Notes: generated from the sequence alone by a model not told the origin. A stretch of DNA of 64,000 nt from Nannocystis bainbridge (GCF_028368995.1 NZ_JAQNDL010000004.1:544001-608000), one strand, 5' to 3'. Positions 19,310 through 63,825 are shown, counted from the stretch's first letter. Numbers and translations: made by a program.

Positions 19310-19393
19310 TGACCTCGAGGGCATGTCCGTAAGGGCATGCTCTCGAGGCGCTGTTCGTAAGGACATGTCCTCGGCGACATGTCCGTGCGGTCA
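19310..19393. repeat. Six 14-bp units between convergent genes
   Basis: TG starts at 19310, 19324, 19338, 19352, 19366 and 19380. Confidence 0.9.
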
Positions 19394-19396
19394 GCC

Positions 19397-19816
19397 TCAG
19401 AAATCGATGACGACGGAGCGGGCCGAGACCTTGGCCGGGCCGTGGAACACCGCCTCGACGTTGTTGCCGGCGGGGTCGAGCAGGAACGCGGCGTAGTAGC
19501 CGGGGTGATACGGGCGCTCGCCGGGGGCCCCGTTGTCGCGGCCGCCCGCGGCCAGGCCGGCGGTGTGGAAGCGTTCGACGGCGCCACGATCGGGGGCCTG
19601 GAAGGCCAGGTGGACCCGCCCGGTGGTCTGACCCTGGGCCGCCTTGCTCTCGGCGGTGGAGATGAAGAGCTCGTCGTACCACACGTGGTCGTCGGCCTCG
19701 CCCCCGCGCGGGACGCCGAGAGCGCCGAGCACCGCGGCGTAGAAGCGCTTGGCCGCGGGGAGGTCGGTGACGACGAGCTGGATGTGATCGATGAGGCGAC
19801 CGCGGTGGAGCTGCAT
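19397..19816 (-). CDS. VOC/glyoxalase family protein
   Basis: IDHIQLVV, RVHLAFQA, GGRDNGAPGERPYHPGYYAAFLLDPAGNNVEAV. Confidence 0.92.
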   Translation of the reverse strand: MQLHRGRLIDHIQLVVTDLPAAKRFYAAVLGALGVPRGGEADDHVWYDELFISTAESKAAQGQTTGRVHLAFQAPDRGAVERFHTAGLAAGGRDNGAPGERPYHPGYYAAFLLDPAGNNVEAVFHGPAKVSARSVVIDF

Positions 19817-19856
19817 GCCCCACCGTAGCCGATCGTTCGGCGCGCGCAACGCCGAG

Positions 19857-21332
19857 TCAGGCGACGGCCTGGTAGTCGCGCAGGTCGAGCTGACGGGTGC
19901 GGAGCCAGTAGCTGACCGTAAAGCCAGGCCACAGCGCGGCGGCCCGACCATCGGCGGTCTGATACCAGCTCTTGCAGCCCGAAGACCACACCGTGCGGCC
20001 GAGCTGCTCGTAGAGCTCGCTGGCGAAGGCACTCTGGACCTCGGGGCGGACGTCGAGGGTCCGCAGGCCGCGGTCGCGGAGCGCCAGGATGCACTGCAGC
20101 GCGTAGCGGACCTGGGCCTCGATCATGAAGATCATCGAGTTGTGGCCGAGACCGGTGCCGGGGCCCATGAGCAGGTAGAGGTTGGGGAAGCCCGCGACGG
20201 TGATCCCGAGGTAGGTCTCGGGCTTGCCGCGCCAGTGGGCGTTGAGCTCGTGGCCGTCGGCGCCGACGATTGTGATGGCCGAGAGATAATCGGTGGCACG
20301 GAAGCCAGTGCCGAGGACGATGGCGTCGACCTCGCGCAGCACGCCGTCGCTGGTGCGCACGCCGGTCGGCTCGATGCGCTCGATCGCATCGGTCACCAGC
20401 TCGACGTTGGGCCGCGTCAGCGCCGGGTAGAAATCGTCGGAGATCAGGACGCGCTTGCAGCCCATGCGGTAGTCGGGCCGCAGGCGGGCGCGCAGGGCCG
20501 GATCGGCGATCTGGCGCGCGAGGTGCCGGCGCGCCAGCGGCTCGACCAGGCGCATGATCGCGGGCCGCATGAAGGCCAGCGCGCGCGCCTCGTGCTGCCA
20601 GTAGAGGCCGCTCCGCACCAGCCGCTGCAGGGCCGGCGCGCGGGCGTAGACGCGGCGCGCCAGCGGGCCGATCGGGTGGTCGGGCTTGGGCACGATCCAC
20701 GCGGGGGTGCGCTGGAACAGGTGCAGCCGCTGCACCTTCGGGGCGATCTGCGGCACGAACTGGATCGCGCTGGCGCCGGTGCCGATGACGGCGACTGTCT
20801 TTTGAGACATGTCGTAGCCGTGGTCCCAGCGGGCCGAGTGGAAGGTCTTGCCGGCGAAGCTGTCGAGCCCCGGCAGCTCGGGGTAAGCGGGCAGGTGGAG
20901 GGCTCCGTTGCCGAGCACGAGGGCGCGGGCGCTGTACTGCTCGCCTGCTTTGGTGCGCACGCGCCAGCGGCCGGCGGCGCGGTCGAACGCGGCGTGCTCG
21001 ACCTCGGCGCCGAAGCGGATGTGGCGGCGGACGTCGTACTTGTCGGCGCAGCGCTCGAGGTAGGCCTGGATCTCCGCCTGCAGCGGGAAGGCGCGGGTCC
21101 ACGCCGGGTTCTGCTCGAACGAGAACGAGTAGAGGTGCGAGGGGATGTCGCAGGCGGCCCCGGGATAGGTGTTGTCGCGCCAGGTGCCGCCGACGCTCGT
21201 GGCCTTCTCGAGCACGACGAAATCGGTGACGCCGACGCGGCGCAGCTGGATAGCCATGCACAGGCCGGAGAAGCCGGCGCCGACGATCACCACGTCGACG
21301 TCGCGGGAGGTGCTCGCAGCGAGTTCGGTCAT
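19857..21332 (-). CDS. Flavin-containing (Baeyer-Villiger-type) monooxygenase
   Basis: GAGFSG, GGTWRDNTYPGAACD, FHSARWD fingerprint, GTGASA. Confidence 0.93.
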   Translation of the reverse strand: MTELAASTSRDVDVVIVGAGFSGLCMAIQLRRVGVTDFVVLEKATSVGGTWRDNTYPGAACDIPSHLYSFSFEQNPAWTRAFPLQAEIQAYLERCADKYDVRRHIRFGAEVEHAAFDRAAGRWRVRTKAGEQYSARALVLGNGALHLPAYPELPGLDSFAGKTFHSARWDHGYDMSQKTVAVIGTGASAIQFVPQIAPKVQRLHLFQRTPAWIVPKPDHPIGPLARRVYARAPALQRLVRSGLYWQHEARALAFMRPAIMRLVEPLARRHLARQIADPALRARLRPDYRMGCKRVLISDDFYPALTRPNVELVTDAIERIEPTGVRTSDGVLREVDAIVLGTGFRATDYLSAITIVGADGHELNAHWRGKPETYLGITVAGFPNLYLLMGPGTGLGHNSMIFMIEAQVRYALQCILALRDRGLRTLDVRPEVQSAFASELYEQLGRTVWSSGCKSWYQTADGRAAALWPGFTVSYWLRTRQLDLRDYQAVA

Positions 21333-21362
21333 CGGCCGCAGTGTAGCGTGGGGCGACGCGGG

Positions 21363-22265: not shown

Positions 22266-22315
22266 ATCGAAGCATTCTAGACGACGCCGATAGCTCGCGG
22301 GGCCACCCTTCCAGC

Positions 22316-22867: not shown

Positions 22868-22881
22868 GGCGGCAGATCGGC

Positions 22882-22951
22882 TGTCTGCGAGAGCATGTCT
22901 CCGAGGGCATGTCTCGAAGAGCATGTCGTGAAGGACATGGCCTCGAGGTCT
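22882..22951. repeat. Five 14-bp units between convergent genes
   Basis: TG starts at 22882, 22896, 22910, 22924 and 22938. Confidence 0.9.
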
Positions 22952-22985
22952 TGTGGTGTGCGGTGCGTCCCGACCGGCTCCGGCC

Positions 22986-24893
22986 TCATGCGCCCGGCGA
23001 GTACCAGATCGGGCTGGTCCAGGCGCGCTCCTGGATGGTGCGCGGGACGGTCGGGTCGCTGCACGCGGGCGGGCGGGCGTCCTCGGCGAGGCCGAGGCAG
23101 TCGCGCCAGCTCCAGCGGCACACCGGGTCCTCGATCACGCGCACGTAATAAAAGGCGGGGCGCGCCGGGTCGAATTCGGGGTCGCGCCAGACCCCGCACA
23201 GGAGGGCCGCGCCGCGCTGCTCGGCGGCGCAGGTGGCCTCGTCGACGCTCGAGCCGTCGGGTCCGCCGGCGACGTCGATCACCGCGATCTGGCCGACGCC
23301 GTCCTCGTCTTGCCAGCCCTTGATCACCTGGATCCGCTCGAGCCGCGACCCGGGCGCGCCGGCGCTGCCGGGGTCCATCTGCGCGCTGACGGCGATGACC
23401 GGGCCCGACGTACCTGTCCTTTCAGGCAGGATCGCCCCCATCGGCACGCCGCGAGCGTCGGCGGCCGCGACGAAGTCGCCGGCGCCGCACAGATCTTCGG
23501 GCAGGCCCCAGCCGCCGAACACCCGCACGGCCATGCGCGGGCCGCTGGTGCCGTAGACCTCGCGGCGGCGGAGCGCGTCCCAGATCGACTCGCGGCTGTT
23601 CTCCTCGGCCCACACCGCGACCAGGCCGCCGGGGCTGTTGCGCGCGCCCGCGGGCACGTTGCCGGTGAGGCGGGTGACGGGGTCGCTCTCGCGGGCGCCG
23701 AAGTGGCCGGGGTAGGTCGCCTCCTCGACGTTGCCGGGCGTGCCGTTGTGGGTGTCGGTGCTGGCGATGACGCCGAGGCGGAACGGGTTGACGCCGAGGC
23801 GCTGCTCGGCGCCGAGGCCGGCGAGCAGGATCCCGCGCAGGAAATCGAGGCGCGACACGCAGCCGCGGCCGACCATGCCCTGGCTGCCGGTGCCGTCGCC
23901 GCAGTCGTCGAACGGCAGCACGCGCAGCTTCTCGAAGTCGCACAGCTCGTCGGGCGGGCCGAGGCCGACGACCCCGCGCGAGCACTCCGAGTCGCCCTTG
24001 TGCTGGTAGATCTCGAGCAGCGGCTCGAGGTCGGCGCGGACCTCGGCGAGCTCGGTCTCGTCGGCGCCGGCGGGCAACTCGGGCGTGAACAGGTTGCCGT
24101 TCGACCAGTTGCTGTTGTGCGGGATCGCCAGCACGTCGCAGCCCTCGCGGCCCTCGCGGCACTCGCCCTGCAGCCGCTGCCACAGCTCGCCGGCGGTCGG
24201 CGCCTCGAAGTGCGTGACCGGCAGCGCGGGTACGCGGCTCGAGCGGAAGATGACGTTGCGGTGGAGGTTCGACAGCATGCGCGAGCCCGACCACTCGTAG
24301 GCGACGAAGCTGGTGAAGCGGCAGGCGGCGGAGCGGTCGTAGGCGGCCTCGGCGGCCTCCTGCACGCGCTTCCACACCGCCCCGGCCCGCGCCTCGCAGT
24401 CGAGCCCGCCCTTGCCGCACAGGTCGTCCCAGCGGGTCGCGTCGTCGCCGTCGAGGCCGAGGCCGAAGTTGACGAGCGCCGCGGTGGTGCCGGCGCGGAA
24501 GTCCTGGCAGCGGTCGCTGTCGTAGACGGCCGAGCCCGGGGTGGTGCAGCCCTCGACCTCGGCCAGGTATTCGGCGTGATCGGTGACGGCGGCGAAGTCG
24601 AGCGGGCGCGCGAGCTTCATGCCGGCGACCTGCTCGCCGCGGGCGAACCGGTAGGCGCCGGCCGGATCGGTGCGCACGTCGTTGATCCAGGCGTCGAACG
24701 AGTAGGCGGTGTGGACGTGGAGATCGCCGAAGTAGAGGTTGCGCTGCGGGTTGCGGTCGCTGCACGCCTCGCGGCGGTCGACGAACGGCTCCGGCTCGGG
24801 GCGACAGGCGAGCTGACCCATCAGGCATGTCGTCAGAGACATGGCCGAAACGACAGGGCGAAGAGAACAGGTTCGATGGGACAGGCCGGTCAT
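22986..24893 (-). CDS. DUF3604 domain protein (PHP-like metallohydrolase)
   Basis: YFGDLHVHTAYSFDA, LDFAAVTDHAEYL, NLHRNVIFR, IPHNSNWSNG, STDTHNG, IQERAWTSPIWY. Confidence 0.92.
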   Translation of the reverse strand: MTGLSHRTCSLRPVVSAMSLTTCLMGQLACRPEPEPFVDRREACSDRNPQRNLYFGDLHVHTAYSFDAWINDVRTDPAGAYRFARGEQVAGMKLARPLDFAAVTDHAEYLAEVEGCTTPGSAVYDSDRCQDFRAGTTAALVNFGLGLDGDDATRWDDLCGKGGLDCEARAGAVWKRVQEAAEAAYDRSAACRFTSFVAYEWSGSRMLSNLHRNVIFRSSRVPALPVTHFEAPTAGELWQRLQGECREGREGCDVLAIPHNSNWSNGNLFTPELPAGADETELAEVRADLEPLLEIYQHKGDSECSRGVVGLGPPDELCDFEKLRVLPFDDCGDGTGSQGMVGRGCVSRLDFLRGILLAGLGAEQRLGVNPFRLGVIASTDTHNGTPGNVEEATYPGHFGARESDPVTRLTGNVPAGARNSPGGLVAVWAEENSRESIWDALRRREVYGTSGPRMAVRVFGGWGLPEDLCGAGDFVAAADARGVPMGAILPERTGTSGPVIAVSAQMDPGSAGAPGSRLERIQVIKGWQDEDGVGQIAVIDVAGGPDGSSVDEATCAAEQRGAALLCGVWRDPEFDPARPAFYYVRVIEDPVCRWSWRDCLGLAEDARPPACSDPTVPRTIQERAWTSPIWYSPGA

Positions 24894-26074
24894 GCGGGGC
24901 TCCAGAAGGCGAGGACGCGCTCGATGGTCCAGGCGACGGCGACGGCGCCGAGGGCGAGGGCCGGGAGGGCGCGCAGCGGGGCGCGCGCGCGGGTCGGCAG
25001 GCGAGCGAGGCCGGCGCGGGCGAGGGCGGCGAGGGCGAGCACGACGGCGGCGACCAGCAACTGGCCGAGCTCGACGCCGGCGTTGAAGGCCAGCAGCGCC
25101 GGCACGGCGGCCCCCTGCGGCAGGCCGATCTCGGCCAGCGCGCCGGCGAAGCCGAGGCCGTGGAGCAGCCCGCAGGCGCCGGCGAGGCGCCAGGCGGCGC
25201 CGGTCGAGGGCTTCTCGCCGAGGGCGAGGGCGCGGGCCAACAGCACCAGCGAGACGGCGATGCAGGCCTCGACGGGCGCCTGCGGCAGCGCGAGCAGGCC
25301 GAGCGCCGCGAGCGCGAGGGTGAGGCTGTGGGCCGCCGTGAAGGCCGTGAGGGCGCCAGCGAGCCGCAGCGCCGGGCGCACGAGCAGCGTGAGGCCGGCG
25401 ACGAACAGCAGGTGATCGGCGCCGCCGAGGATGTGCTCGACGCCGAGGGCGAGGTAGCCGGGCGGCGGGCCGGGGCTCGGGTCGAGCGGGGCGGTGGTTT
25501 GACCTGGCCGGAGGACCATGGTCTGAAGGCCAGCCTCGGGGCGGCGCAGGTGGACGATCAGCTCGCCGCGCGCGAGGCCGGTGACGCCGAGCTCGCCGCG
25601 CAGGCCGTCGGGACCGCAGTTGGCGCGCAGGCGGCCGGGCGGGGCGGGCGAGGGCCGACAGTGCGGCGGGAGCTCGACGCGCAGGGCCTGGAGGTCGGGC
25701 TCGGGCGGGAGCTCGAGGCGGCCCTGGACGCGGCCGTCGGCGGCCTGCTCGAGCACGAGCACGGCCGGGCGGAACTCGTGGGCGCGGGCAACCGAGGCGT
25801 GGAGCAGCAGCGGCGCGGCGATGATCGCGGCGAGTGCTTTTGAGCCCGCCGCGGGCGGCGTCGGACGCGAGATCGAGGTGGCCGAAAGGACAGGTAATTC
25901 AGAAAGTTTCGCAGGGATCGCGGGCTGCGGCGCCGCGCACCGGGTCCGAGCGGAGGTTGAGATGGCCGAAGGGACAGGTAGGCCTCCGGGAGCGGTGCCT
26001 GCGAGCCGCGACGGGCGGGCGAGCGCCATGTCCGAAGGGACATGTGATGCGCCCGGTATGACTTCGGCGGTCAC
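24890..26074 (-). CDS. HupE/UreJ family protein with a long motif-bearing N-terminal extension
   Basis: ARAHEFRP, LGVEHILGGADHLLFV, FTAAHSLTL, GLLHGLGFAG, FNAGVELGQ; GTG overlaps the upstream stop; true start uncertain. Confidence 0.85.
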   Translation of the reverse strand: MTAEVIPGASHVPSDMALARPSRLAGTAPGGLPVPSAISTSARTRCAAPQPAIPAKLSELPVLSATSISRPTPPAAGSKALAAIIAAPLLLHASVARAHEFRPAVLVLEQAADGRVQGRLELPPEPDLQALRVELPPHCRPSPAPPGRLRANCGPDGLRGELGVTGLARGELIVHLRRPEAGLQTMVLRPGQTTAPLDPSPGPPPGYLALGVEHILGGADHLLFVAGLTLLVRPALRLAGALTAFTAAHSLTLALAALGLLALPQAPVEACIAVSLVLLARALALGEKPSTGAAWRLAGACGLLHGLGFAGALAEIGLPQGAAVPALLAFNAGVELGQLLVAAVVLALAALARAGLARLPTRARAPLRALPALALGAVAVAWTIERVLAFWSPA

Positions 26075-27953: not shown

Positions 27954-30548
27954 ATGAAGAAGCCTCCCCCCAGGTCGACCATCCCCAACTTCAACGACCT
28001 CACCGAAAAGAAGCTGCGCTCGCTCGGGCAGAAGCTGGACAAGCTCGTCGACGCCAACGCGTTCAAGCACAACAGCCTGCTGCGCAAGAGCGACAGCGAC
28101 TCGACCGCGCTGCTGTGGCACCTGGCCCGCCACGGGCTCGTGCTGCATTCGGTGATCTCGGTCGGCATGTTCCGGACGCTCAGCGAGAACACCCGCGGGA
28201 TCCCGGCGGACGACATCCTCACCGTGCTGCGCCGCGTGCCCGACGACATGGGCGCGCTCGACAAGGGCCAGGGGCGCTCCTGGCCGTCGTACACGCCCGG
28301 AATCTCGACGGAGGTCGATACGCTGATCACCGCGGCGTACGTGGCCGACCCGGCGGCCGTGACGGCGCTGCGCGACGAGCTGCCGGAGAACATGCAGCTG
28401 GCGATCGACTTCGTCCGCGGCCGCGCCGGCGAGACGATCCCGCCGGCGTCGAGCGTGAAGATCCTGCGTCACCTCGTGACGACCCACCTGGTGCGCGGTC
28501 TGGCGACCGGCTGGGACTGCCCGTGGATCGTCGAGGGGCGACTGGTCGAGTTCCGTCTGAATTCGACGGCGCAGGTGGAGCTGCTGGCCGCCCGGTTCGG
28601 CTCGTCGTGGGCCGAGGAGGCGCACGCGTGGATCCTGCCGCGCGTCAACGAGTTCCGCGCGCGCGCCGGCGACATCGGCCGCAACGGCGTGGCCGGGCTG
28701 CGGCTGGCGACGCTGGCGGACGTGATCTATCTGTTCGGCGACGGCTGGTGGGACCCGCGCTCGCTGCTGGAAGTGCTCGACGCCCGCGACGATGCGCCGG
28801 CGGCCCTGTTCGCGGCGGCGCTCAAGCTGCGCGCCGAGGGCACTTCGGCGTTCAAGATCACGGTGCCGCAGGTGCGGCCGGAGCCGCCGCAGAAGCCGTC
28901 CGCCGGCGATGAGGACGCGGACGACGGCGACGACGGCGACGACGATTACGCCGGTGACGGCGACGAGTACGACGAGTACGGCGGCGGCGGCGGCGGCGGC
29001 GAGGTCGATGCGGACGCGGAGCCGGAGATCGAGGAGGCGAGCGGCGACGAGGAGCGGGTAGTGTTGCTGGCGACGCTGCTGACGGCGGTGGGCATCGAGC
29101 GCGCGCACGCGAGTGGGCAGGCGATCCCGCTCGAGGTGGACGCGGTGATCGACCTCGACAAGGTCTACGACAGCGAGCCGCAGCTGATCGCGCGGCTGCG
29201 CGGGGTGATGGCGATCCTCGGGCCGGCGCGCACGCACGCGATCCTGCGCAGGCAGCTGGCCAAGGAGTTCTGGTTCGGCAAGGTCAGCGCGTTCCTCGAC
29301 GTCCACTTCGACCGCGCGCTGGTCGAGGAGGCGTTCGCCCGCCTCGCCGCTGGCAAGTACGCGGCCGACGCCGGGCTGCTCGGGTTCTGCACGCCGGCGC
29401 TGGTGCCGTTCGTGGTCCAGGCGCAGGCGCAGGCGAGGACGCCCGAGATCAAGGCGATGTTCGGCGAGGCGATCCTTTACATCCTGGCCCGCGCGGCGGC
29501 AGGCGGCGAGACGTGGGACCCGGCGCTCGAGCAGCACCTGCAGCTCGACCAGATCCGGTTCGACTACGGCGGCCCCAAGGTCGACCCGGTGCTGGCGCTG
29601 CTCGACAAGCTGCCGCTGGCGCGGTGGGTCAAGGTCATCGAGGCCAACCGCGAGCGCTGCGCCGAGGAGCCGGTGCGGCTGCTCAAGCTGCTGCGGACCG
29701 ACATGCCGCCTGCACTCCTGGCCGAGATCTTGAAGGACGCGGTGGCCAGGCAACAGAAGCTCGGTTCCGGCGGGTTGGGCGACCGCCTGCGCAAGTTCGG
29801 GCCCGAGATCGTGACGCCGTTGCTGCAGGCGATCGGCGACGCGCCGGCCACCAACACGCTGATGAAGGATCTCGATCGCTCGCTCGACTACCTGGTGTTC
29901 ACGGCGGTAAAGGAGGGGCTCGGCAAGGCGATCGAGACGCCGGAGCAGGAGCTGCGGCGGCTGGCGGCCAGCGTGCCGGGAGAGACGATCCGGATCTATC
30001 GCCTGCGTCGCGGCCAGGGCGAGCCTTCGGCGGACGCGGTGGCGCGGATCGGCGGGGCGCCGCGCGGGGTGGTGACGCCGCCGGTCGATCGCAAGGAGCC
30101 GATGACGCACGTCATCACGCTCGACCTGGCGCAGCTGCCCGAGCTGGCGGCGCGTCGCCCGGGCGCGCGTTCGCTGTCGCTCTACTTGCCCGACCCCGAC
30201 ACCGGTGAGCGGCACCGCCACGGCGCGCTGGTGTGGACGAGCGAGGCGGAGCTGGGCGGCGCGCCGGGTTCGACCGCGGACGCGCGGCCGCTGGTGGTCG
30301 AGGCGTTCGACGTGCCGGCGCAGATCTTCGGCGGCGAGGAGCTCACGGGTCCGGCCAAGCGGGTACGCGGGATCGTCTACGGCTCGCCGGGATACGTCGG
30401 CGGCGGCCCGCTGTGGCTGCAGGACGGCGAGCCAGGGGTCGATCCGCGCTTCGTGTTCCAATTTGACGAGAGCCTGTGCGGCATCAACCTCGGCGACTCG
30501 GGGGTGATGTACGTGTTCGAGGGAGACATCGACTGGCAGTGCCATTGA
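27954..30548 (+). CDS. Large hypothetical protein with a C-terminal DUF1963/YwqG-like domain
   Basis: RIGGAP...MTHVITLDLAQLP...YVGGGPLWLQ...FVFQFDE...NLGDSGVMYVF...WQCH. Confidence 0.78.
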   Translation: MKKPPPRSTIPNFNDLTEKKLRSLGQKLDKLVDANAFKHNSLLRKSDSDSTALLWHLARHGLVLHSVISVGMFRTLSENTRGIPADDILTVLRRVPDDMGALDKGQGRSWPSYTPGISTEVDTLITAAYVADPAAVTALRDELPENMQLAIDFVRGRAGETIPPASSVKILRHLVTTHLVRGLATGWDCPWIVEGRLVEFRLNSTAQVELLAARFGSSWAEEAHAWILPRVNEFRARAGDIGRNGVAGLRLATLADVIYLFGDGWWDPRSLLEVLDARDDAPAALFAAALKLRAEGTSAFKITVPQVRPEPPQKPSAGDEDADDGDDGDDDYAGDGDEYDEYGGGGGGGEVDADAEPEIEEASGDEERVVLLATLLTAVGIERAHASGQAIPLEVDAVIDLDKVYDSEPQLIARLRGVMAILGPARTHAILRRQLAKEFWFGKVSAFLDVHFDRALVEEAFARLAAGKYAADAGLLGFCTPALVPFVVQAQAQARTPEIKAMFGEAILYILARAAAGGETWDPALEQHLQLDQIRFDYGGPKVDPVLALLDKLPLARWVKVIEANRERCAEEPVRLLKLLRTDMPPALLAEILKDAVARQQKLGSGGLGDRLRKFGPEIVTPLLQAIGDAPATNTLMKDLDRSLDYLVFTAVKEGLGKAIETPEQELRRLAASVPGETIRIYRLRRGQGEPSADAVARIGGAPRGVVTPPVDRKEPMTHVITLDLAQLPELAARRPGARSLSLYLPDPDTGERHRHGALVWTSEAELGGAPGSTADARPLVVEAFDVPAQIFGGEELTGPAKRVRGIVYGSPGYVGGGPLWLQDGEPGVDPRFVFQFDESLCGINLGDSGVMYVFEGDIDWQCH

Positions 30549-30604: not shown

Positions 30605-32140
30605 ATGCACCATGTGAAGCGGTTGGGATGGATGGTCGCGGTCGTGGCCGCGTGTGGAGATTCGAGCGCCAGCACCGATGCTCTGCTGGAGACGACGACA
30701 TCGACATCGACATCGACCACGACGATGACGACGGACCCGGCGACCACGGACGAGCCGGGCACGACCGTCGCGCCGACGACGACGGACCCGACAACGACCT
30801 CGACTTCGACTTCGACCTCGACGACAGAGCCGGGTACGACGACGTCATCGACGACGGAGCCGGATACGACGACGACCTCCTCGACGACGGAGTCGGACAC
30901 GACGACGACGACGACGGACACGACGACGGACACGACGACCGGGACCGACACGAGCACTTCGACGACGACCGGGACCGACGATGACGCCGACGACGACGGC
31001 GTGGCGGACGCGGACGACAACTGCGTCGACGTCGCCAACGCGGGCCAGGAGGACGGCGACGAGGACGGGGCCGGCGACGCGTGTGACAACTGTGCCGGCG
31101 ATCCGAACCCCGATCAGGGCGACGGGGACGGGGACGGAGTCGGCGACCTTTGCGACGAGGAGGCGATCAACAACGGCGACGTGCTCTACGTGCCCGAGGG
31201 GACATCGATCGATCTCGGCGGGTCGCACTGCTACGGGCTGTGGGTGAAGATCGACGGCACGGTCACGGTGCCGGCGTACGCGAACAACCCGAACACCGGC
31301 ACGTTGACGCTCAAGTCGCAGACGATCCGGATCGGCGCGACCGGCAAGATCGTGGCCGACAACGCGGGCATGGCCGGCGGCACGCCGTCGCAGCAGAACA
31401 CGGTCGGCGGGTTCGCCGGGCAGGGCGTGGGTGCGGGCTGCGGCGGCGGTCCGGGCAGCTCGGTCGGGCAAGGCGGCTCGGGCGCGGGCTACGGCGGCGT
31501 CGGCGGCGCGCCCGGGAACACCTACGCGATGAACAACGCCTGCAACAGCTGCAGCGAGCCGACCATCTCGCACTGCGGCGGCGCGGTCGGCACGGTCGTC
31601 GGCACCGACATGGGCGAGGACGTGGCGCTCGGCGTCGGCGGCGGCGCGGGCGGCAACTCGAGCGGCTGCAGCAACGCCGGCGGTCGCGGCGGTCGCGGCG
31701 GCGGCTCGGTGCTGCTGCTGGCCAACGACTGGGTGCAGGTCGACGGCTCGGTGAGCGCGCGCGGCGAGGAGCCCCCGCCCGACAATTCGGCGTGCGGTTA
31801 TCGACCCGGGGGCGGCGGCGGCTCGGGCGGCGGCATCGTCGTCGCCGCGGACGAGGTGCTCGGCGCGGGCACGCTCGACGCCCGCGGCGGCAACGGCGGA
31901 CCGGCGCTCGGCGAGACGCAGAGCCAGACGTGGGCGTGGGGCGGCGGCGGCGGCGGCGGCGGCCGGATCAAGGTGTTCTCGCCGGCCGACGCGTTCAGCG
32001 GCATGCGCCGCGTCGACGCCGGGGCCGGCGGGACCGCGCCGGCCACCGGGTCGAGCGTCGCCGGCCTCGCGGGCGCGAGCGGCAAGACGGCGGCGGTCGC
32101 CACCATCCCGGCGAACTACGACGACCTGACCTGCCAGTGA
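30605..32140 (+). CDS. Lipoprotein with Thr stalk, thrombospondin type-3 repeats and a Gly-rich domain
   Basis: VVAAC lipobox; DADDDGVADADDNCVDVANAGQEDGDEDGAGDACD repeats; GGGGSGG segments. Confidence 0.85.
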   Translation: MHHVKRLGWMVAVVAACGDSSASTDALLETTTSTSTSTTTMTTDPATTDEPGTTVAPTTTDPTTTSTSTSTSTTEPGTTTSSTTEPDTTTTSSTTESDTTTTTTDTTTDTTTGTDTSTSTTTGTDDDADDDGVADADDNCVDVANAGQEDGDEDGAGDACDNCAGDPNPDQGDGDGDGVGDLCDEEAINNGDVLYVPEGTSIDLGGSHCYGLWVKIDGTVTVPAYANNPNTGTLTLKSQTIRIGATGKIVADNAGMAGGTPSQQNTVGGFAGQGVGAGCGGGPGSSVGQGGSGAGYGGVGGAPGNTYAMNNACNSCSEPTISHCGGAVGTVVGTDMGEDVALGVGGGAGGNSSGCSNAGGRGGRGGGSVLLLANDWVQVDGSVSARGEEPPPDNSACGYRPGGGGGSGGGIVVAADEVLGAGTLDARGGNGGPALGETQSQTWAWGGGGGGGGRIKVFSPADAFSGMRRVDAGAGGTAPATGSSVAGLAGASGKTAAVATIPANYDDLTCQ

Positions 32141-32144: not shown

Positions 32145-32228
32145 TGGCTGAACGGACATGTCGTGAAGGACATGTCCGTTCGGGAATGGCAAAAAGGGCA
32201 TGTCCTCGCGGACATGCCCTTTCATACA
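32145..32228. repeat. Six 14-bp units between convergent genes
   Basis: TG starts at 32145, 32159, 32173, 32187, 32201 and 32215. Confidence 0.9.
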
Positions 32229-32253
32229 TGGCGACCGGGCGCCGGCGCGCGGC

Positions 32254-35945: not shown

Positions 35946-36030
35946 TGTCTCTCGGGTCATATCCTCGGGGTCATGCAGGCTGATCCTTGAGGGTGTCTTA
36001 AAGGGCATGTCCGAAGGGACATGCCCGAAC
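35946..36030. repeat. Cluster of 14-bp units
   Basis: Units at 35946, 35960, 35994 and 36008, plus a partial unit at 36022. Confidence 0.8.
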
Positions 36031-38290: not shown

Positions 38291-38315
38291 GCGCGGATGC
38301 GTGAAGGAGGGGCCG

Positions 38316-38385
38316 TGGCCTTCGGGCCATGGCCCTTCGTATATGTCCGAAAGGACATGTCTTCCGGGTCATGGCACTTCGGACA
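38316..38385. repeat. Five 14-bp units between convergent genes
   Basis: TG starts at 38316, 38330, 38344, 38358 and 38372; the last unit lies in the 3' end of the S10 peptidase gene. Confidence 0.88.
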
Positions 38386-47843: not shown

Positions 47844-47927
47844 TTGTCTTTCGGACATGTCCATCGGGGCATGTCTGAAAGAGCCTGAACGTTCGGGCAT
47901 GTGAAAGAGGACATGTCCGAACGGGCA
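47844..47927. repeat. Six 14-bp units between convergent genes
   Basis: Units at 47844, 47858, 47872, 47886, 47900 and 47914. Confidence 0.9.
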
Positions 47928-48089
47928 TGTGATGCGCGCACGCGCACGCGCGGGCGCTTGCGGGAGGCCGGGCTCAGCGGAGCGCGGCGGGCGTGGCAGC
48001 GCCGGCGGTCGCCGGTGTGTGCAATGGGCGGGCTCCGTGGGGCGGTTCGCGGCGAGCGGGGCAGCGCTGGCGGTTGCGGGCGGCCGGGC

Positions 48090-50396: not shown

Positions 50397-50503
50397 GGCC
50401 GGCCTCCGTGAACAGGGTCGAAAGGACATGTCCACAGGAGCATGTCGTCATGGACATGCCCGCTGGGGCATGTCTGAAGGGGCATGGCGACGGGCGGGGT
50501 CAC
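50393..50503 (-). CDS. Putative 36-aa bridging ORF between argB and argC, largely made of five 14-bp units (50415-50484)
   Basis: GTG overlaps the argB stop and its TGA overlaps the argC ATG. Confidence 0.35.
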   Translation of the reverse strand: MTPPVAMPLQTCPSGHVHDDMLLWTCPFDPVHGGRP

Positions 50504-51828: not shown

Positions 51829-51841
51829 GGTCGTGAGAACT

Positions 51842-56806: not shown

Positions 56807-57062
56807 AGTCTGGCGCGGGTCCGGGCGGCGGTGGTTCTCCCGCGTGCCCGAGGAGGCGTCGCCTGGGGTCGACGCGCGGCAGGTCGAGCGGGCCGGGCGG
56901 TGGGTGACCTGCTGGCGGCGGCGCGACCCTGGGGGCGCGAGGCGGTAGCTGTCTCTTGGGCCAGGTCGGCGGAGCGGCCGCCTCGGCGAGTCGTCGGCGC
57001 GGGGTTCGCGGGCGCTTCCCCTCCGGGCGGGAACGCGCTAGGGAGCGTGCCCGCGGAGGCCC

Positions 57063-58289
57063 ATGGCAGCAGCTTTGTCGAGGATCGACCCACCGAGCAC
57101 GCCGGGCCTGTTGGCGCTGGCCGACGGGACCCTGTTTCGCGGCCGCGCGCTCGGAGCCCACGGGCGCACGTGCGGCGAAGTCGTGTTCAACACGGCGATG
57201 ACCGGATACCAGGAGGTCGTCTCCGACCCGAGCTATCACCAGCAGATCGTGACGCTGACGGCGGCGCACGTCGGGGTGGTCGGGGTCAACGCGGACGACG
57301 AGGAAGGCCGCGGGCCGCAGGTCGCCGGGCTGGTGGTCCGCGACGCGCCGCGCATGTTCGCGTCGTGGCGCGGGCGCGAGAGCCTGGGGGCGTATCTGCA
57401 GCGCGCGGGGGTGGTGGCGGTGGCGGACATCGACACGCGCCGGCTGACGCACCTGCTGCGCGAGCGCGGGGCGATGGCGGGCTGCGTGGCGGCCGGCGAG
57501 GCGGCCCGCGACGAGGCGGGCTGCGTGGCGGCGGCGCGGGCGTTCCCGGGGCTGCAAGGCGCGGCGCTGGCGGAGGCGGTCAGCGTGCCGGAGCCGGCCG
57601 GGTGGACGGCGGGCTCGGTCCGCTGGCTCGAAGGACATGTTCGTGAGGGCATGTCCGATGCGGCAGGTCCGGAGGGGCATGTTCGTGAGGGCATGTCCCC
57701 GGGGGCAGCCGGGCACGTGGTGGCGTTCGACTTCGGGATCAAGCGCAACATCCTGCGGCTGCTGGTCGACCGCGGGCTGCGGGTGACGGTGGTGCCGGCG
57801 GCGACGACGGCGAGCCAGGCGCTGGCGCTGCGGCCGGACGGGATCTTCCTGTCGAACGGGCCGGGCGATCCGGAGCCGCTGCAGGCCCAGCAGGCGGCGA
57901 TCCGCGAGCTGGTGGCGGCGGGGCTGCCGGTGTTCGGGATCTGCCTCGGGCACCAGCTGCTGTGCCTGGCGCTGGGGGCCCGCACGTTCAAGATGAAGTT
58001 CGGCCACCACGGGGCCAACCACCCGGTGCGCGAGCTGGCGAGCGGGCGGGTGCTGATCACGAGCCAGAACCACGGGTTCGCGGCCGACCCGGCGACGCTG
58101 CCGGCGGCGCTGCGGGCGACGCATGTGTCGCTGTTCGACGGGTCGCTGCAAGGGGTGGAGCTGGCGGATCGGCCAGTGTTCTCGTTCCAGGGCCACCCGG
58201 AGGCGTCGCCGGGGCCGCGCGAGCTGGCGGGGCTGTTCGACAGGTTCGCCCGCGAGGTGAGCGCGGGCCGGACCACGAAGGGGGTGTGA
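57063..58289 (+). CDS. carA: Carbamoyl-phosphate synthase small subunit
   Basis: [40 protein letters not shown]. Confidence 0.96.
57624..57707. repeat. Six 14-bp units (84 bp, 28 codons) inside carA
   Basis: Units at 57624, 57638, 57652, 57666, 57680 and 57694; peptide EGHVREGMS repeated at a 42-bp period. Confidence 0.92.
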
Positions 58290-58290
58290 C

Positions 58291-61440
<3,150 letters not shown>

Positions 61441-61480
61441 GCCCGGCGCGCCGCGGTCGTCAGGCCGCGGCGCGAAGGGC

Positions 61481-61632
61481 TGGTCGAGCGGGCAGGTGAC
61501 TGACCGATCGGGCAGGTTCGGCTGTCCGAAGGGGCAGGTGATCCCGCTGGCCGAGCGGGCAGGTGATGCTGGCCGATCGGGCGGGTGAATCGGTGTCCGG
61601 CGTGACGGGTTGTGAGGCTGTCCGAATGGACA
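61481..61632. repeat. Seven spaced 14-bp units (20-25 bp apart) downstream of carB
   Basis: Units at 61481, 61501, 61523, 61548, 61570, 61594 and 61619; six are followed by GGT. Confidence 0.85.
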
Positions 61633-61790
61633 TGTTGTGACTGGCTGACGATCGACGGATGTCGCCGCTCCGCGGCGTCGACGGCGAGCGTTGATGGCTG
61701 GGTGGGCCTGGCTGAAGGGGTTCTGGGCGGGGTGGCGCCGGTTTTGGCGGCAATGTGTATTTTCGCGCGGGGCTCTGGTACGTCCGGGCC

Positions 61791-62600
61791 ATGCAGGAGA
61801 GCCGAGGGTCCCAGAGCGTCGATCCCGAGGAGTTGCGCGCGGCGCTGGGCGAGCCGGGGCGGCTGGGGCTGTACCTGTCGCGCGGGGTCGGGCTCGAGTC
61901 GGAGCGCGGCGAGGGGCAGCCGGAGTTCGTGCGGGTGGCGGTGTTGACGAGCGTGTCACCGCCGGCGCTGGAGGCGAAGCGCATGGCGTGGCGAGCGGCG
62001 GTGGCGGGGCTCGGGGTCGAGTCGCTGCCGGCGATCGCGGGGGTCGAGCTGGTGGCGGCGCGGGCGGGCTCGGCGTGGAGCTGGGTGGGGCCGGAGACGC
62101 GGGCGGCGGTGCTGCGGCTCGCGGTGAGGTCGCTGCTGGCGGCGGAGCCGGAGGTGGCGGTGTTTCACGTCACCGACGAGTTCGGCGGGGGGATGCTGCC
62201 GCGGCTGCAGTCGGGGCGGACGGCCGGAGAGCCGCGCCTGGACGCGCGGCTGCTCGAGCACGTGGTGTTCGCGGCAGTGACATACCGGCTGATGGTCGCG
62301 TCGGGCGAGGCGGTGGTGGTGACGCCGGGCGACGACGAGACATGGTCTTCGAGACAGGTGTTTCCGGAGCACGCGGCGGTGTGGCGGCGAGGGTTGATGG
62401 CGGCGCCGCACGAGGCGCTGGCAGGGCTCGACCTGGCAGCGCTGGCGGAGGCGTTGGTGTGGGCGACGACGACGCGCCGCGGTCGGGCGACGGTGGCGGC
62501 GGGGCCCGTGGCGATCGCTACGGCGGTGGCCGAGGCGGAGGGGCAGCTGCGAGCCCGCTGGACCGACCTGCTGCGCGAGCGCGCGGGCGGGGGCAACTGA
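61791..62600 (+). CDS. Hypothetical protein
   Basis: GC3-biased ORF; no family recognised. Confidence 0.65.
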   Translation: MQESRGSQSVDPEELRAALGEPGRLGLYLSRGVGLESERGEGQPEFVRVAVLTSVSPPALEAKRMAWRAAVAGLGVESLPAIAGVELVAARAGSAWSWVGPETRAAVLRLAVRSLLAAEPEVAVFHVTDEFGGGMLPRLQSGRTAGEPRLDARLLEHVVFAAVTYRLMVASGEAVVVTPGDDETWSSRQVFPEHAAVWRRGLMAAPHEALAGLDLAALAEALVWATTTRRGRATVAAGPVAIATAVAEAEGQLRARWTDLLRERAGGGN

Positions 62601-62740
62601 GGCGCGCGGCGAGAGGGTGCGGGAGAGATCGATGGCGGCGCGGCGGCGGCGATGCGGTGTGACAGCGGTGCTCGCAAGCTCCGGCAAATTCGCGCTGTGA
62701 CCGCCGCTGGACGGGGCCGGATCCCGCGAGTAGCCTGAAG

Positions 62741-63499
62741 ATGATGGATGCGCGACTCGGGCAGGGCTTCGGATGGGCGGTGGCGTGTCCGGCGACGGCC
62801 GAGGAGGCCGCTGCGCGCCATGTGGAGGGGCTCTGGGCGTCGTTCTTCCCGCCGGCCGCGGGCTACGCGGTGACACGATCGGAGGTGGTGTCGGTGCCCG
62901 AGCCGGCGCCGTCGCGCGCGCGCGCGCAGCAGCCGGGGATGCGGCTGCTGGTGCGACGCGGTGATTTCTGCGGCGAGGTGGAGGTGGCGGCGACGACGGG
63001 GCCGCGTCGCTCGCGGCTGTGGCTGCGTGGGTACGCGGGCTCGCAGCGGCTGGCGGCGGTCGAGCTGCGAGCGGCCCGCGCGACCGACCGCCTGCGCCTG
63101 GCGGGCTCGCTGGCGGGGGCGTCGGCCCTGCTGGTGCTGTGCGTGGAGCTGATGACGCACCCGCCCGGGTTCACGGTCGACATGATGTTCTTCCTCGGCG
63201 GGCTGCTGGTGGCGGTGATCATGGTGGTGGGGCTGGCGATCGGAGCGAACGTCGGCTCGTGGTTCGGCGAGCGCCAGGCGGTGACGGGCTGGGTCCGGGC
63301 GCTGGCGCTGGTCGAACGCGACGCGGCCCTGCGCGAGGACCTGCGCCGCTGGCGTTCGCTGGTGAAGAACCTGGCCCACTACCGCGACGCGCTGGCGGGT
63401 TCGAGCCGCCGCCAGCCGTTCCGCGCGCTCAGCCCGGGGGCGGAAGAGGACGAGGCGGAGCTGGCCGAAGAGACAGGGGCGGCGCGGGCGGCCGGTTGA
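62741..63499 (+). CDS. Hypothetical membrane protein (two TM helices)
   Basis: Hydrophobic segments LAGASALLVLCV and MFFLGGLLVAVIMVVGLAIG. Confidence 0.7.
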   Translation: MMDARLGQGFGWAVACPATAEEAAARHVEGLWASFFPPAAGYAVTRSEVVSVPEPAPSRARAQQPGMRLLVRRGDFCGEVEVAATTGPRRSRLWLRGYAGSQRLAAVELRAARATDRLRLAGSLAGASALLVLCVELMTHPPGFTVDMMFFLGGLLVAVIMVVGLAIGANVGSWFGERQAVTGWVRALALVERDAALREDLRRWRSLVKNLAHYRDALAGSSRRQPFRALSPGAEEDEAELAEETGAARAAG

Positions 63500-63727
63500 G
63501 GCTGCGTCGGTTCGTTGCTGAAGTCGCGCCGACCGAGCGTGCGCCATGAGCCGGTGGGCGAAGGTCGAGGTGAGCGCGGTGTGAGGCCATCGAGCTGGCG
63601 GAGGCTGCGTCAGTGGGGGCCGGGCGAGGCGCCATGGGCGGATGGGGTGACAGACGACGGAAGCACGCGGGAGTGCTCGGCGGCTGGCGAAAGCTTCAGG
63701 CAGATGCGGAAGCTCGTCGGCCCGAGA

Positions 63728-63825
63728 TGGCTGCAAAAGAATGTCTATAGGGACATGTCGTCAGAGACATGTCTCTAAAATAATGTCGTTATGGACATGT
63801 CAATATGGACATGTCCTTCGGGGAC
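63728..63825. repeat. Seven 14-bp units, the longest array in the window
   Basis: TG starts at 63728, 63742, 63756, 63770, 63784, 63798 and 63812. Confidence 0.92.

What the first reader, a model, noticed from the sequence alone, without database searches (positions are those of the whole stretch)
19310..63825. Head-to-tail arrays with an exact 14-bp period but non-identical units
Seen: arrays of 5-7 abutting units at 19310-19393, 22882-22951, 32145-32228, 38316-38385, 47844-47927, 50415-50484 and 63728-63825. Phase is kept even across degenerate units, while the N6 cores nearly all differ, so recent slippage alone does not explain them. Junctions create a second dyad, GACATGTC. Most arrays fill gaps between convergent genes. 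Inference: selection on spacing suggests cooperative polymerisation of a protein along DNA (14 bp is about 1.33 turns; three units, 42 bp, are about 4 turns), or stepwise unit addition by an enzyme. A roadblock terminator or supercoiling barrier role is possible.
Basis: partly seen in the sequence, partly recalled or inferred. Interest (0 to 1): 0.85.

Follow-up and report, generated by a model that had tools for sequence, protein, structure and literature searches.

The report
Phase-locked palindromic hairpin repeats after genes
The 14-base arrays are real and belong to a genus-specific family of about 1,600 short palindromic repeat arrays that sit just after stop codons and fold into hairpins, much like the REP elements of other bacteria but without their usual transposase.

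Summary
Observation confirmed. The unit is a 10-bp palindrome (GGACATGTCC, consensus GRRCATGYYC) plus 4 variable bases. Genome-wide, motif hits 14 bp apart number 1759, against 8 and 13 at 13 and 15 bp. I count 1639 arrays and 6343 units (0.74% of an 11-Mb, 71.5% GC genome).

Arrays lie in 37% of convergent gaps, 11% of co-directional gaps and 6% of divergent gaps. They start a median 26 nt after the stop codon. Some lie in frame inside real genes (carA, recQ linkers).

They are not copies of a master MITE: flanks are not conserved and spacer combinations collide at chance level.

Neighbouring units pair as 10-16-bp stems closed by the 4-nt spacer. Orthologous arrays in five sister species keep these stems through compensatory changes, while spacers evolve about three times faster than the 10-mers. 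Stem mismatches favour G.U on the sense strand.

The motif arrays occur in all 11 genomes of the genus and in 0 of 300 other genomes of the phylum. No Y1 (RAYT) transposase was found in any of the 11.

Best reading: a REP/BIME-like family of 3'-end hairpins whose palindromic arms make slippage steps exactly 14 bp. The agent that keeps the sequence uniform is unknown.

The parts
19305..19384 (.). Array of 6 units between convergent genes (DUF2330 gene ending at 19292 on +, glyoxalase-family gene ending at 19397 on -)
   Evidence: Folds as two hairpins on both strands, z -6.8 and -5.8. In 5 genomes, 11 of 35 predicted pairs changed on both sides and stayed paired.
22891..22956 (.). Array of 5 units between convergent genes (rubrerythrin-like on +, DUF3604 on -)
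   Evidence: This array does not fold better than shuffles (z -0.5 and -0.2). No orthologue could be mapped.
32154..32233 (.). Array of 6 units between convergent genes: hairpin (units 1-2), decayed unit 3, hairpin (units 4-5), decayed unit 6
   Evidence: 6 of 42 pairs with a kept double change; z -6.2 and -7.1. The loop of hairpin 2 is TCGC here and GCGA, its reverse complement, in G005 and G007.
38311..38376 (.). Array of 5 units after the PEPCK gene (stop at 38290), overlapping the end of a convergent peptidase S10 gene
   Evidence: 95.2% of cells paired against 91.3% in shuffles (2 of 500). 5 pairs changed on both sides against 1.6 (1 of 500).
47853..47932 (.). Array of 6 units between convergent genes
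   Evidence: z -8.3 and -5.5. The orthologous gap has a shorter array in G001 and G010. G007 has no motif units there.
50410..50489 (.). Array of 6 units between two co-directional (-) genes
   Evidence: sense strand z -4.0. Arrays are present but rearranged in 5 of 5 relatives.
63751..63816 (.).
   Evidence: z -4.9 and -4.6.
24809..24888 (.).
   Evidence: Kept at the same place in 6 of 6 genomes.
57633..57698 (+). Array of 5 units inside carA, translated as the inter-domain linker (residues 191-212, ...EGHVREGMS...EGHVREGMS...)
   Evidence: Pfam domains at residues 17-142 and 221-395; translation. Same length in 6 of 6 genus genomes, with spacers changed and 10-mers kept. The linker is about 13-21 residues shorter in the 7 well-aligned CarA of other genera, out of 10 translated.
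3890..3927 (-). Array of 3 units inside recQ, residues 263-275, between the DEAD and Helicase_C domains
13372..13521 (.). Three tandem copies of a roughly 68-bp repeat, each carrying 2-3 units, downstream of a + gene
   Evidence: The content of this gap differs in every relative.
2956..3007 (.). Further short arrays of the same family in the window (also 5986-6023, 14432-14483, 26024-26047, 36003-36026)

Best explanation
The arrays are one genus-specific family of short palindromic repeats that behaves like REP/BIME elements. The unit is the palindrome GGACATGTCC plus 4 free bases. Because the unit equals its own reverse complement, each neighbour is both an inverted and a direct repeat. In a single strand (the transcript, and transiently DNA), unit i pairs with unit i+1 into a 10-bp stem closed by the 4-nt spacer, and the stem often extends through the outer spacers to 13-16 bp. 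On the duplex, slipped mispairing between neighbouring 10-mers adds or removes exactly 14 bp, so phase is kept even when units decay. The arrays sit in 3' untranslated DNA that starts at or just after the stop codon. A typical convergent gap holds 5-6 units, that is, two hairpins separated by one decayed unit, and reads alike from both strands. Most likely they act in RNA as 3'-end hairpins, either as a pause or termination signal without a U tract or as a barrier to 3' exonucleases. Shown here: the family, its phase, its location, pairing with compensatory change, constraint on the 10-mer, lineage restriction and the absence of a RAYT. Inferred: the RNA-level role, slippage as the source of the phase, and an unknown sequence-specific agent that keeps 6343 units alike.
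For: Family and phase: GACATGTC occurs 2237 times against 74 expected, and GGACATGTCC 956 times against 9.5. The d=14 peak is 1759 against 8 and 13 at d=13 and 15. There are 1639 arrays. Location: arrays occupy 558 of 1499 convergent, 552 of 5145 co-directional and 96 of 1497 divergent gaps. In co-directional gaps they lie a median 26 nt after the upstream stop and 176 nt before the next start. The stop codon TGA falls in two preferred phases of the unit (73 cases at d=-3, 81 at d=+6). Hairpins: adjacent units are more complementary than random unit pairs (at least 9 of 10 positions: 13.7% against 10.1%; lag 2: 7.0%). Spacers two apart are reverse-complement identical in 3.3% of cases against 1.2%. 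In orthologous convergent-gap arrays, 24 of 144 predicted pairs changed on both sides and stayed paired. The PEPCK array exceeds shuffles in 499 of 500. 9 of 12 folded array strands have z between -4 and -8.3. RNA level: within each replication-skew class, G.U/(G.U+A.C) in stems is higher on the sense strand (0.756 against 0.582; 0.428 against 0.282). The unpaired spacers show no such shift (0.513 against 0.532; 0.477 against 0.456). Constraint: pairwise differences between species are 0.10-0.18 in 10-mers, 0.04-0.10 in the CATG core and 0.29-0.37 in spacers. Slippage trace: identical neighbouring spacers number 113 of 3065 (3.7%) against 1.2% expected. REP parallels: passages of PMC3733652 report that REPs supply stop codons, lie in frame inside genes including helicase and repair genes, and are reiterated in tandem, and that CGTC-type REPs lack a dedicated transposase.
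Against: No transcript data: the RNA runs found cover only conserved PEPCK coding parts. No T tract follows the arrays, and none of the 4 terminator-like hits in 20 kb (4.8 expected) is at an array. Only 13.7% of adjacent unit pairs are complementary at 9 or more of 10 positions; most units match the consensus better than they match each other. Units not selected for matching still read G-R-R-C-A-T-G-Y-Y-C (812 skipped units). Pairing alone explains neither this nor the uniform sequence at 1639 loci. Arrays inside carA and recQ are transcribed through, keep their 10-mers, and show little covariation (6 of 155 pairs), so hairpin function is not the only constraint. One of the seven listed arrays (22868-22985) folds no better than shuffles. 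No 14-nt indel was seen among 12 arrays compared between two genomes 95% identical. The sense-strand G.U excess could still be a stem-specific mutation bias. Location counts rest on my own crude gene caller.
Confidence: 0.55

Rival explanations
1. Duplex-DNA protein sites: a dimeric protein recognises each 10-bp palindrome and polymerises along the phased array. It would act as a roadblock, a topological barrier, or a gyrase or nucleoid-protein site between converging transcription units.
For: The 10-mer consensus, above all CATG, is conserved beyond what pairing needs. It is kept inside genes where covariation is weak. All spacers, both loops and linkers, are 4 nt. Array size is capped: convergent gaps peak at 5-6 units, 47 have 7, and 14 of 606 have 8 or more. 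The units are strand-symmetric, for example TTCG 49 against CGAA 46 in oriented arrays. From recall, not from any call: contiguous 7-bp heptads bound by ribbon-helix-helix proteins, and gyrase binding at E. coli BIMEs, are precedents.
Against: Compensatory changes produce units that are no longer palindromic but still complement their neighbour, for example GGGCATGGTC with GACCATGCCC in G007. A dimer site would not be expected to tolerate this. The sense-strand G.U bias is present in stems and absent in spacers. A 10-bp palindrome with half-sites 5 bp apart at 1.33 turns per unit matches no common binding geometry (inference). 1639 loci, some inside genes, are unlike centromere or operator arrays. 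No candidate protein was found.
Confidence: 0.2
2. Selfish or mutational by-product with no host function: small non-autonomous elements, or self-expanding palindromic minisatellites, that spread and persist where insertion is tolerated (3' gaps and protein linkers). Their uniformity would come from their own mobilising or converting machinery.
For: Arrays lie in frame inside conserved genes, and the carA linker is longer only in this genus. Arrays are gained, lost and rearranged between species, for example at 47853 and 13372-13521. They are rare in divergent (promoter) gaps. The family is confined to one genus. There is a trace of unit duplication. Stop codons are supplied by units, as reported for REPs.
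Against: No transposase is linked to them. A Y1 transposase is absent from 11 of 11 genus genomes and TnpB from this genome. The single partial IS91-like match has no motif nearby. The few IS-like repeats have no motif at their ends. Spacer combinations are not shared between arrays beyond chance for pairs, so there has been no recent copy-and-paste of multi-unit pieces. Most arrays that could be mapped are kept at the same place in species about 90% identical. The 10-mers evolve about three times more slowly than the spacers, which requires selection or directed conversion.
Confidence: 0.2
3. DNA uptake signal: the palindrome is a genus-specific uptake sequence enriched by biased uptake and recombination, and paired copies double as hairpins after genes, as in Neisseria (recalled).
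For: A 10-mer is about 100-fold over-represented and genus-specific. It is spread evenly along all contigs. It occurs in non-coding and coding DNA, and copies are not derived from one another.
Against: Uptake-driven enrichment works by point changes and does not explain exact 14-bp phase or six units in a row in a protein linker. Nothing about competence was tested.
Confidence: 0.05

Closest known systems
REP / BIME / REPIN elements of Proteobacteria (RAYT-associated)
   Same: Short hairpin-forming palindromes in hundreds to thousands of copies, lineage-specific, mostly after genes and between convergent genes. They are clustered in regular arrays of alternating orientation, sometimes supply the stop codon, sometimes lie in frame inside genes, and persist at the same loci across species (passages of PMC3733652; abstract of PMC2817692).
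   Different: No GTAG or CGTC tag. No Y1/RAYT gene in 11 of 11 genus genomes. Each arm is itself a palindrome, so orientation is lost and arrays have an exact 14-bp period. Loops and linkers are both 4 nt and are not copied between loci.
CGTC-tagged REPs (Di Nocera et al. 2013, PMC3733652)
   Same: A REP class for which no dedicated transposase is known (abstract and passages). It also occurs inside genes.
   Different: No CGTC tag here. The exact short period and self-complementary arms are not described in the passages I read. The paper's additional files, which list families by species, were not available.
Intrinsic (Rho-independent) terminators, including bidirectional ones
   Same: Stable stem-loops directly after genes, readable on both strands in convergent gaps.
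   Different: No T/U tract. One shared stem sequence genome-wide. Also present inside genes.
Highly iterated palindrome HIP1 of cyanobacteria, and DNA uptake sequences of Neisseria and Pasteurellaceae (recalled, not from a call)
   Same: A short motif tens-fold or more over-represented, lineage-specific, and not spread as copies of a longer element.
   Different: Those motifs are dispersed singly or as loose pairs. Here 4026 of 9496 one-mismatch hits lie in 14-bp-phased groups.
Rickettsia palindromic elements (recalled; rickettsial REPs are mentioned in PMC3733652)
   Same: Palindromic repeats inserted in frame into protein-coding genes and translated.
   Different: Those are about 100-150 bp and occur as single copies, not as arrays of 14-bp units.

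Membership tests
REP/BIME (REPIN-RAYT system) | Short imperfect palindrome able to form a stem-loop | tested here: met
   Stems of 10-16 bp with 4-6-nt loops; 9 of 12 folded strands have z of -4 or lower. Covariation.
REP/BIME (REPIN-RAYT system) | High copy number, extragenic, mainly at 3' ends of genes | tested here: met
   1639 arrays. They occupy 37% of convergent, 11% of co-directional and 6% of divergent gaps. 328 arrays are called genic by my gene caller.
REP/BIME (REPIN-RAYT system) | Clusters of regularly spaced units in alternating orientation | tested here: met
   Exact 14-bp spacing. Odd lags are more complementary than even lags. Orientation itself is undefined because the unit is a palindrome.
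REP/BIME (REPIN-RAYT system) | Conserved GTAG (or CGTC) tetranucleotide at one end | tested here: not met
   Position tables of units and flanks show no such tag.
REP/BIME (REPIN-RAYT system) | Cognate Y1 (RAYT) transposase gene in the genome | tested here: not met
   PF01797: 0 matches in this genome and 0 of 11 genus genomes (completeness 64-91%). The control rings in 6 of 14 known genomes.
MITE | Copies of one conserved element with terminal inverted repeats, target-site duplication and a parent IS | tested here: not met
   No information beyond the units in 2290 flanks. Spacer pairs collide at chance level. IS-like repeats lack the motif.
Intrinsic terminator | Stem-loop followed by a T/U tract | tested here: not met
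   T is at most 0.31 at the first two positions after 605 oriented arrays and about 0.13 beyond them. The scan finds none at arrays.
Intrinsic terminator | Transcript 3' ends at the element | not testable with these tools
   Only contigs of metatranscriptomes were available, and they cover conserved coding parts only.
Centromere-like, iteron or heptad arrays bound by a polymerising protein | Phased short repeats at one or a few loci next to partition or replication genes, with a cognate binding protein | tested here: not met
   Phased repeats are present, but at 1639 loci spread evenly over all contigs. The protein could not be tested.
Known RNA families (Rfam 15) | Match at the gathering score | tested here: not met
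   0 matches in the window.
DNA uptake sequence | Preferential uptake of motif-bearing DNA by the competence machinery | not testable with these tools
   Only the over-representation is shown.

The most novel reading that the evidence does not exclude
The genus carries an undescribed sequence-specific machinery, not a Y1/RAYT transposase, that recognises the GGACATGTCC stem or duplex. It would write, homogenise and maintain phase-locked arrays at about 12% of gene 3' ends. That would make it either a new kind of REP-like replicator with an unknown enzyme, or a sequence-coded 3'-end and termination system with a dedicated factor.
Probability: 0.25. Interest if true: 0.8.

Novelty: new variant of a known kind. 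Interest (0 to 1): 0.55.

Why it matters
About one gene in eight in this 11-Mb genome ends next to one of these arrays (965 gene 3' ends have an array edge within -20 to +30 nt, out of 8146 called genes). The arrays are therefore probably the main 3'-end signal of the genus, in high-GC bacteria whose terminators are poorly known.

The family also poses a clean puzzle. About 6300 units keep one 10-bp sequence while the 4 bases between them evolve freely. This happens without a RAYT, without a parent IS, and without signs of copy-and-paste.

The design is self-symmetric, with arms that are themselves palindromes. This gives a simple explanation for exact phase without invoking DNA helical repeat, and it may apply to other short-period palindrome arrays.

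Practically, the arrays are markers for the genus. They are sites of assembly and annotation error, such as false ORFs and shifted stops. They are also candidate portable 3'-end modules for engineering such organisms.

Tried and rejected
RNA evidence. The look-up of sequencing runs gave only small shares (at most 0.13 of words) in soil and root metatranscriptomes. Laying four runs showed that the two certain RNA runs cover only conserved PEPCK coding stretches. Contigs of the two probably-DNA runs run across the array from relatives. Nothing can be said about transcript ends.

The search for related loci with PEPCK returned 80 distant phyla and no close relative, so it was of no use for naming the organism or for orthologues. 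A guess that it is a myxobacterium led to literature searches that found nothing relevant, and the strong GC skew does not help to place it.

Literature. GACATGTC and GGACATGTCC occur only as p53 sites and primers in the listings. Searches for palindromic intergenic repeats in myxobacteria gave CRISPR and genome papers only (listing).

Earlier notes of this scan: none on this genome or this motif.

RNA tetraloop selection. Oriented co-directional arrays show no strand preference (TTCG 49 against CGAA 46; GAAA 31 against TTTC 33), so the loops are not selected as UUCG or GNRA.

Even number of units. There is no excess of even sizes.

Coding arrays as multiples of three units. Three-unit arrays are only modestly enriched and six-unit arrays are not. 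The carA linker is 13-21 residues longer, not a clean 14 or 28. Inconclusive.

Unit gain or loss. No 14-nt indel was found among 12 arrays compared between G005 and G007.

Rho loading site with six units for a hexamer. Considered and rejected, because the arrays are G-rich and strongly paired.

Analogous arrays with another motif in sister genera. None were found in 78,947 bases around carA of other genera, which is a small sample.

The apparent + strand bias of A.C over G.U in convergent arrays is explained by replication skew.

It was redone with a faster method.

Full report
THE OBSERVATION

The seven arrays are in the sequence as described. Read in register, each is a run of units made of a 10-bp palindrome close to GGACATGTCC followed by 4 variable bases. 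An example is GGCATGTCC-GTAA-GGGCATGCTC-TCGA-... at 19310.

In the window, GACATGTC with up to one mismatch occurs 79 times, against 19.5 +/- 4.2 in shuffles (largest 31). Runs of three or more in-phase units number 21 at spacing 14, against 2, 0, 3 and 0 at spacings 12, 13, 15 and 16.

The window lies in an 11.05-Mb assembly of 5 contigs with 71.5% G+C. Genome-wide:
- GACATGTC occurs 2237 times against about 74 expected from base composition.
- GGACATGTCC occurs 956 times against 9.5 expected.
- One-mismatch hits 14 bp apart number 1759, against 8 at 13 bp and 13 at 15 bp.
- Further peaks stand at 28, 42, 56, 70 and 84 bp.

I chained hits and extended them while the next in-phase 10-mer matched at least 6 of 10 positions (background rate 2.7%). 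This gives 1639 arrays and 6343 units, or 0.74% of the genome. Sizes are 2 units: 494; 3: 316; 4: 253; 5: 249; 6: 205; 7: 86; 8 or more: 36. The definition is conservative. The array after PEPCK, whose units have drifted to GGCCATGGCC, was missed by it.

ANATOMY

The position table gives G-G-A-C-A-T-G-T-C-C, with CATG the best-kept part. The 4-nt spacer has only a weak Y...R tendency.

Units that were not selected for matching still read G-R-R-C-A-T-G-Y-Y-C. These are 812 units skipped between two good hits. CCTG or CAGG is the main variant of the core.

Spacers are diverse. Among 4704 spacers the commonest, CTTC, makes up 3.4%.

Nothing is conserved outside the units in 2290 flanks. Pairs of consecutive spacers are shared between arrays no more often than after shuffling (1278 against 1231 +/- 49). 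Triples are shared a little more often (42 against 5.5), which fits a few duplicated loci. The few IS-like repeats of the genome carry no motif at their ends. The arrays are therefore not fragments or copies of one longer MITE.

LOCATION

These counts use my own codon-bias gene caller (8146 genes, 84.5% coding). It is crude, so they are approximate.
- Arrays occupy 558 of 1499 convergent gaps, 552 of 5145 co-directional gaps and 96 of 1497 divergent gaps.
- In co-directional gaps they start a median 26 nt after the upstream stop codon and end a median 176 nt before the next start.
- The stop codon is often part of the array, in two preferred phases. It is TGA in place of GGA at unit positions 1-3 in 73 cases, and TGA at positions 6-8 (CATGA) in 81 + 31 cases. 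Other offsets have roughly 10-45 cases each.
- Convergent gaps have their own size distribution, peaking at 5-6 units (125 and 128 arrays). Co-directional gaps fall off steadily from 2 units.
- Arrays are spread evenly over all contigs.

328 arrays are called genic. The two in the window were checked and are real.
- One lies in carA between the CPSase and GATase domains. It is translated as ...EGHVREGMS...EGHVREGMS....
- One lies in recQ between the DEAD and Helicase_C domains.

The carA array has the same length in all six genus genomes compared. The linker is about 13-21 residues shorter in the 7 CarA sequences of other genera that translated and aligned well, out of 10 tried.

PAIRING

A palindromic unit is complementary to every other unit, so any two neighbours can form a 10-bp stem with a 4-nt loop.

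Predicted folds of the window's arrays show two hairpins of 13-16 bp, with stems running on through the outer spacers, on both strands. For 9 of 12 strands z lies between -4 and -8.3. The array at 22868-22985 is no better than shuffles, and the carA array has z -3.1.

Within the genome:
- Adjacent units are more complementary than random unit pairs. At 9 or more of 10 positions the shares are 13.7% against 10.1%, and for perfect matches 3.6% against 1.5%.
- Units two apart are less complementary (7.0%) and units three apart more so (11.5%).
- Spacers two apart are reverse-complement identical in 3.3% of cases against 1.2% expected.

The effect is modest, and most units resemble the consensus more than their partner.

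The stronger evidence is comparative. The window is collinear with five other species of the genus at about 88-92% identity in BLAST segments. Arrays that could be mapped are mostly kept in place: 19305, 24809, 32154, 38311, 50410 and the genic ones. Others are replaced or rearranged: 47853 and 13372-13521.

In the array after PEPCK, units 1 and 2 read GGCCGTGGCC/GGCCATGGCC in this genome and GGGCATGGTC/GACCATGCCC in G007. The G007 units are no longer palindromes, but they are perfect partners of each other. On that alignment:
- 95.2% of cells are paired, against 91.3% in shuffles (2 of 500 shuffles reach it).
- 5 of 21 pairs changed on both sides, against 1.6 in shuffles (1 of 500).
- Sliding the partner by 1-3 columns leaves 27-50% of cells paired.

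Over all alignable arrays, the share of predicted pairs with a kept double change is:
- 24 of 144 in convergent gaps;
- 2 of 31 in the one co-directional array;
- 6 of 155 in genic arrays.

These sets hold only 4-6 related sequences each and the structures were predicted on the same alignments, so the counts are indicative rather than a formal test.

RNA OR DNA?

In co-directional gaps only one strand is the transcript. Stem mismatches are G.U rather than A.C more often on the sense strand. Within regions of positive GC skew, the + strand share of G.U is 0.756 behind + genes and 0.582 behind - genes. Within regions of negative skew it is 0.428 and 0.282. The unpaired spacers of the same arrays show no such shift in G+T content: 0.513 against 0.532, and 0.477 against 0.456.

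This is what selection on an RNA hairpin predicts. A stem-specific mutation bias is not excluded. Replication skew is strong in this genome and by itself explains the + strand asymmetry first seen in convergent arrays.

There is no loop-level strand preference: TTCG 49 against CGAA 46. No T tract follows the arrays. Rfam has no match in the window. Public RNA data were uninformative.

CONSTRAINT AND TURNOVER

Between species, spacers differ at 0.29-0.37 of positions, 10-mers at 0.10-0.18 and the CATG core at 0.04-0.10.

For the closest pair, G005 and G007 (95.1% identity):
- spacers differ at 0.258 (66 nt compared);
- 10-mers differ at 0.083;
- the core does not differ;
- the fastest codon phase of coding windows differs at 0.061.

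So spacers evolve at least as fast as third codon positions, while the 10-mer is held. This is most visible in the carA linker. There every spacer differs between species, but the 10-mers still read GRRCAKGYYC.

One loop is the exact reverse complement of its orthologue: TCGC against GCGA at 32154. This suggests flipping between the arms.

Identical neighbouring spacers are three times the expectation: 113 of 3065, or 3.7%, against 1.2%. This is a trace of unit duplication. However, no 14-nt indel was seen in 12 arrays compared between G005 and G007.

DISTRIBUTION AND ENZYMES

A two-unit pattern with up to one mismatch occurs as follows:
- 456 times in this genome;
- in 10 of 10 other genomes of the genus, at 185-294 times in the five large assemblies and 2-71 times in the smaller or fragmented ones (4.5-9.1 Mb);
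- once in one of 14 other genera of the family;
- in 0 of 16 further genomes of the class;
- in 0 of 300 other genomes sampled across the phylum.

The 14-bp phase is the same in the relatives, for example 15 pairs at d=14 against 0 at d=13 and 0 at d=15 in G001.

Searches for a linked enzyme found nothing:
- The Y1 transposase family of RAYTs and IS200 is not found in any of the 11 genus genomes. These are 64-91% complete, and the control rings in 6 of 14 known genomes.
- The TnpB zinc-ribbon family is not found in this genome.
- A single partial IS91-type match has no motif within 3.2 kb.

WHAT IT IS

The features are those of REP/BIME-type repeats:
- short hairpin-forming palindromes;
- lineage-specific, in thousands of copies;
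- located after genes and between convergent genes;
- arranged in regular arrays;
- sometimes supplying the stop codon;
- sometimes in frame inside genes;
- long-lived at their loci.

Passages of Di Nocera et al. 2013 (PMC3733652) report the stop-codon, intragenic and tandem features for REPs, and a REP class without a dedicated transposase.

Two defining features of the classical family were tested and not met: the GTAG or CGTC tag and the RAYT gene. So I file the arrays as working like REP/BIME, not as members of the REP-RAYT system.

The new twist is that each arm is itself a palindrome. That makes neighbours both inverted and direct repeats. It accounts for the exact phase, because slippage steps are 14 bp and every spacer can act as a loop for a transcript arriving from either side. 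It also accounts for the loss of orientation. Repeated homogenisation of a unit against both a direct and an inverted neighbour can only be stable for a palindrome. This last point is inference.

What is not explained is why 1639 loci share one sequence. Pairing, slippage and local correction cannot do that. Either a sequence-specific protein reads the stem or duplex, or a mobilising or converting activity of unknown type exists.

RIVALS

It would not explain the compensatory changes or the sense-strand G.U bias.
- A purely selfish or mutational origin fits the genic insertions and the turnover. It lacks an enzyme and must still explain the held 10-mer.
- An uptake signal fits the over-representation but not the phase.

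I put the REP-like 3'-end hairpin reading at 0.55, the duplex-protein reading at 0.2, the no-function reading at 0.2 and the uptake signal at 0.05. The structural core of the finding is much firmer than any functional claim. That core is one family, 14-bp phase, neighbour pairing and restriction to the genus.

NOVELTY AND LIMITS

I found no description of this motif family. Full-text searches for the 8-mer and 10-mer returned p53 sites and primers only (listings). Searches on palindromic intergenic repeats in myxobacteria returned nothing relevant (listing). A search on REP and RAYT repeats returned the general REP literature.

The limits on that statement are these. I do not know the organism's name, so I cannot exclude a description under a genus name. 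The additional files of PMC3733652, which list REP families by species, were not available. Earlier notes of this scan record similar stop-codon-hugging palindrome arrays in other phyla that were read as REP-like, but none on this DNA.

Verdict: a real, highly non-random, genus-wide feature and a new variant of a known kind. It is of moderate to good interest because the maintaining agent is missing and because the arrays probably mark the 3' ends of about one gene in eight.

Noticed in passing
whole genome (C1-C5); window lies in C4: Very strong GC skew (about +/-0.06 to 0.10 in 250-kb bins), with sign changes near C3:1.5 Mb and C1:4.3-4.5 Mb, probably the origin and terminus. Gene strand is not biased with it. 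Array base composition follows the skew.
   Followed up: partly
whole genome: Tetranucleotide extremes: CTAG at 0.05 of expectation, TCGA at 4.2 times and GATC at 3.0 times expectation. The common spacers (TCGA, GATC, TTCG, CGAA) mirror these genome-wide preferences.
   Followed up: no
window 13372-13521: A roughly 68-bp tandem repeat (three copies), each copy holding 2-3 units. The orthologous gap has different repeat content in each of four relatives, including a 110-120-bp tandem repeat in G007 and G010.
   Followed up: partly
window 32197-32220 and orthologues in G005 and G007: The 4-nt loop of a conserved hairpin is TCGC in this genome and GCGA, the exact reverse complement, in two relatives. 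This suggests inversion by exchange between the hairpin arms.
   Followed up: no
L085 (G007:C2:2031080-2032866): The PEPCK orthologue of G007 is split into two overlapping matches with 2 TGA inside, so it is either a frameshift or an assembly error.
   Followed up: no
window 4765-4842: A 22-bp tandem repeat (3.5 copies, 94% matches) unrelated to the 14-bp family; not examined.
   Followed up: no
window 28920-29002, 30691-30998, 33376-33530, 35045-35110: Long runs of 3-, 9-, 12- and 33-nt periodic repeats (GAC/ACG/GGT types) inside predicted genes, probably acidic or Gly-rich low-complexity protein segments.
   Followed up: no
window 24889-24950 equivalents in G005 and G007: G005 and G007 share a 54-nt duplication (...CATGCGGGGCTCC...) next to the 24809 array that the other four genomes lack.
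   Followed up: no
genome C1:555907-557318, C2:2315117-2316528, C3:876251-877662 and two other families: The genome holds very few multi-copy IS-like elements (three families of 3 copies each, of 1411, 2022 and 801 bp), which is unusual for an 11-Mb genome.
   Followed up: partly
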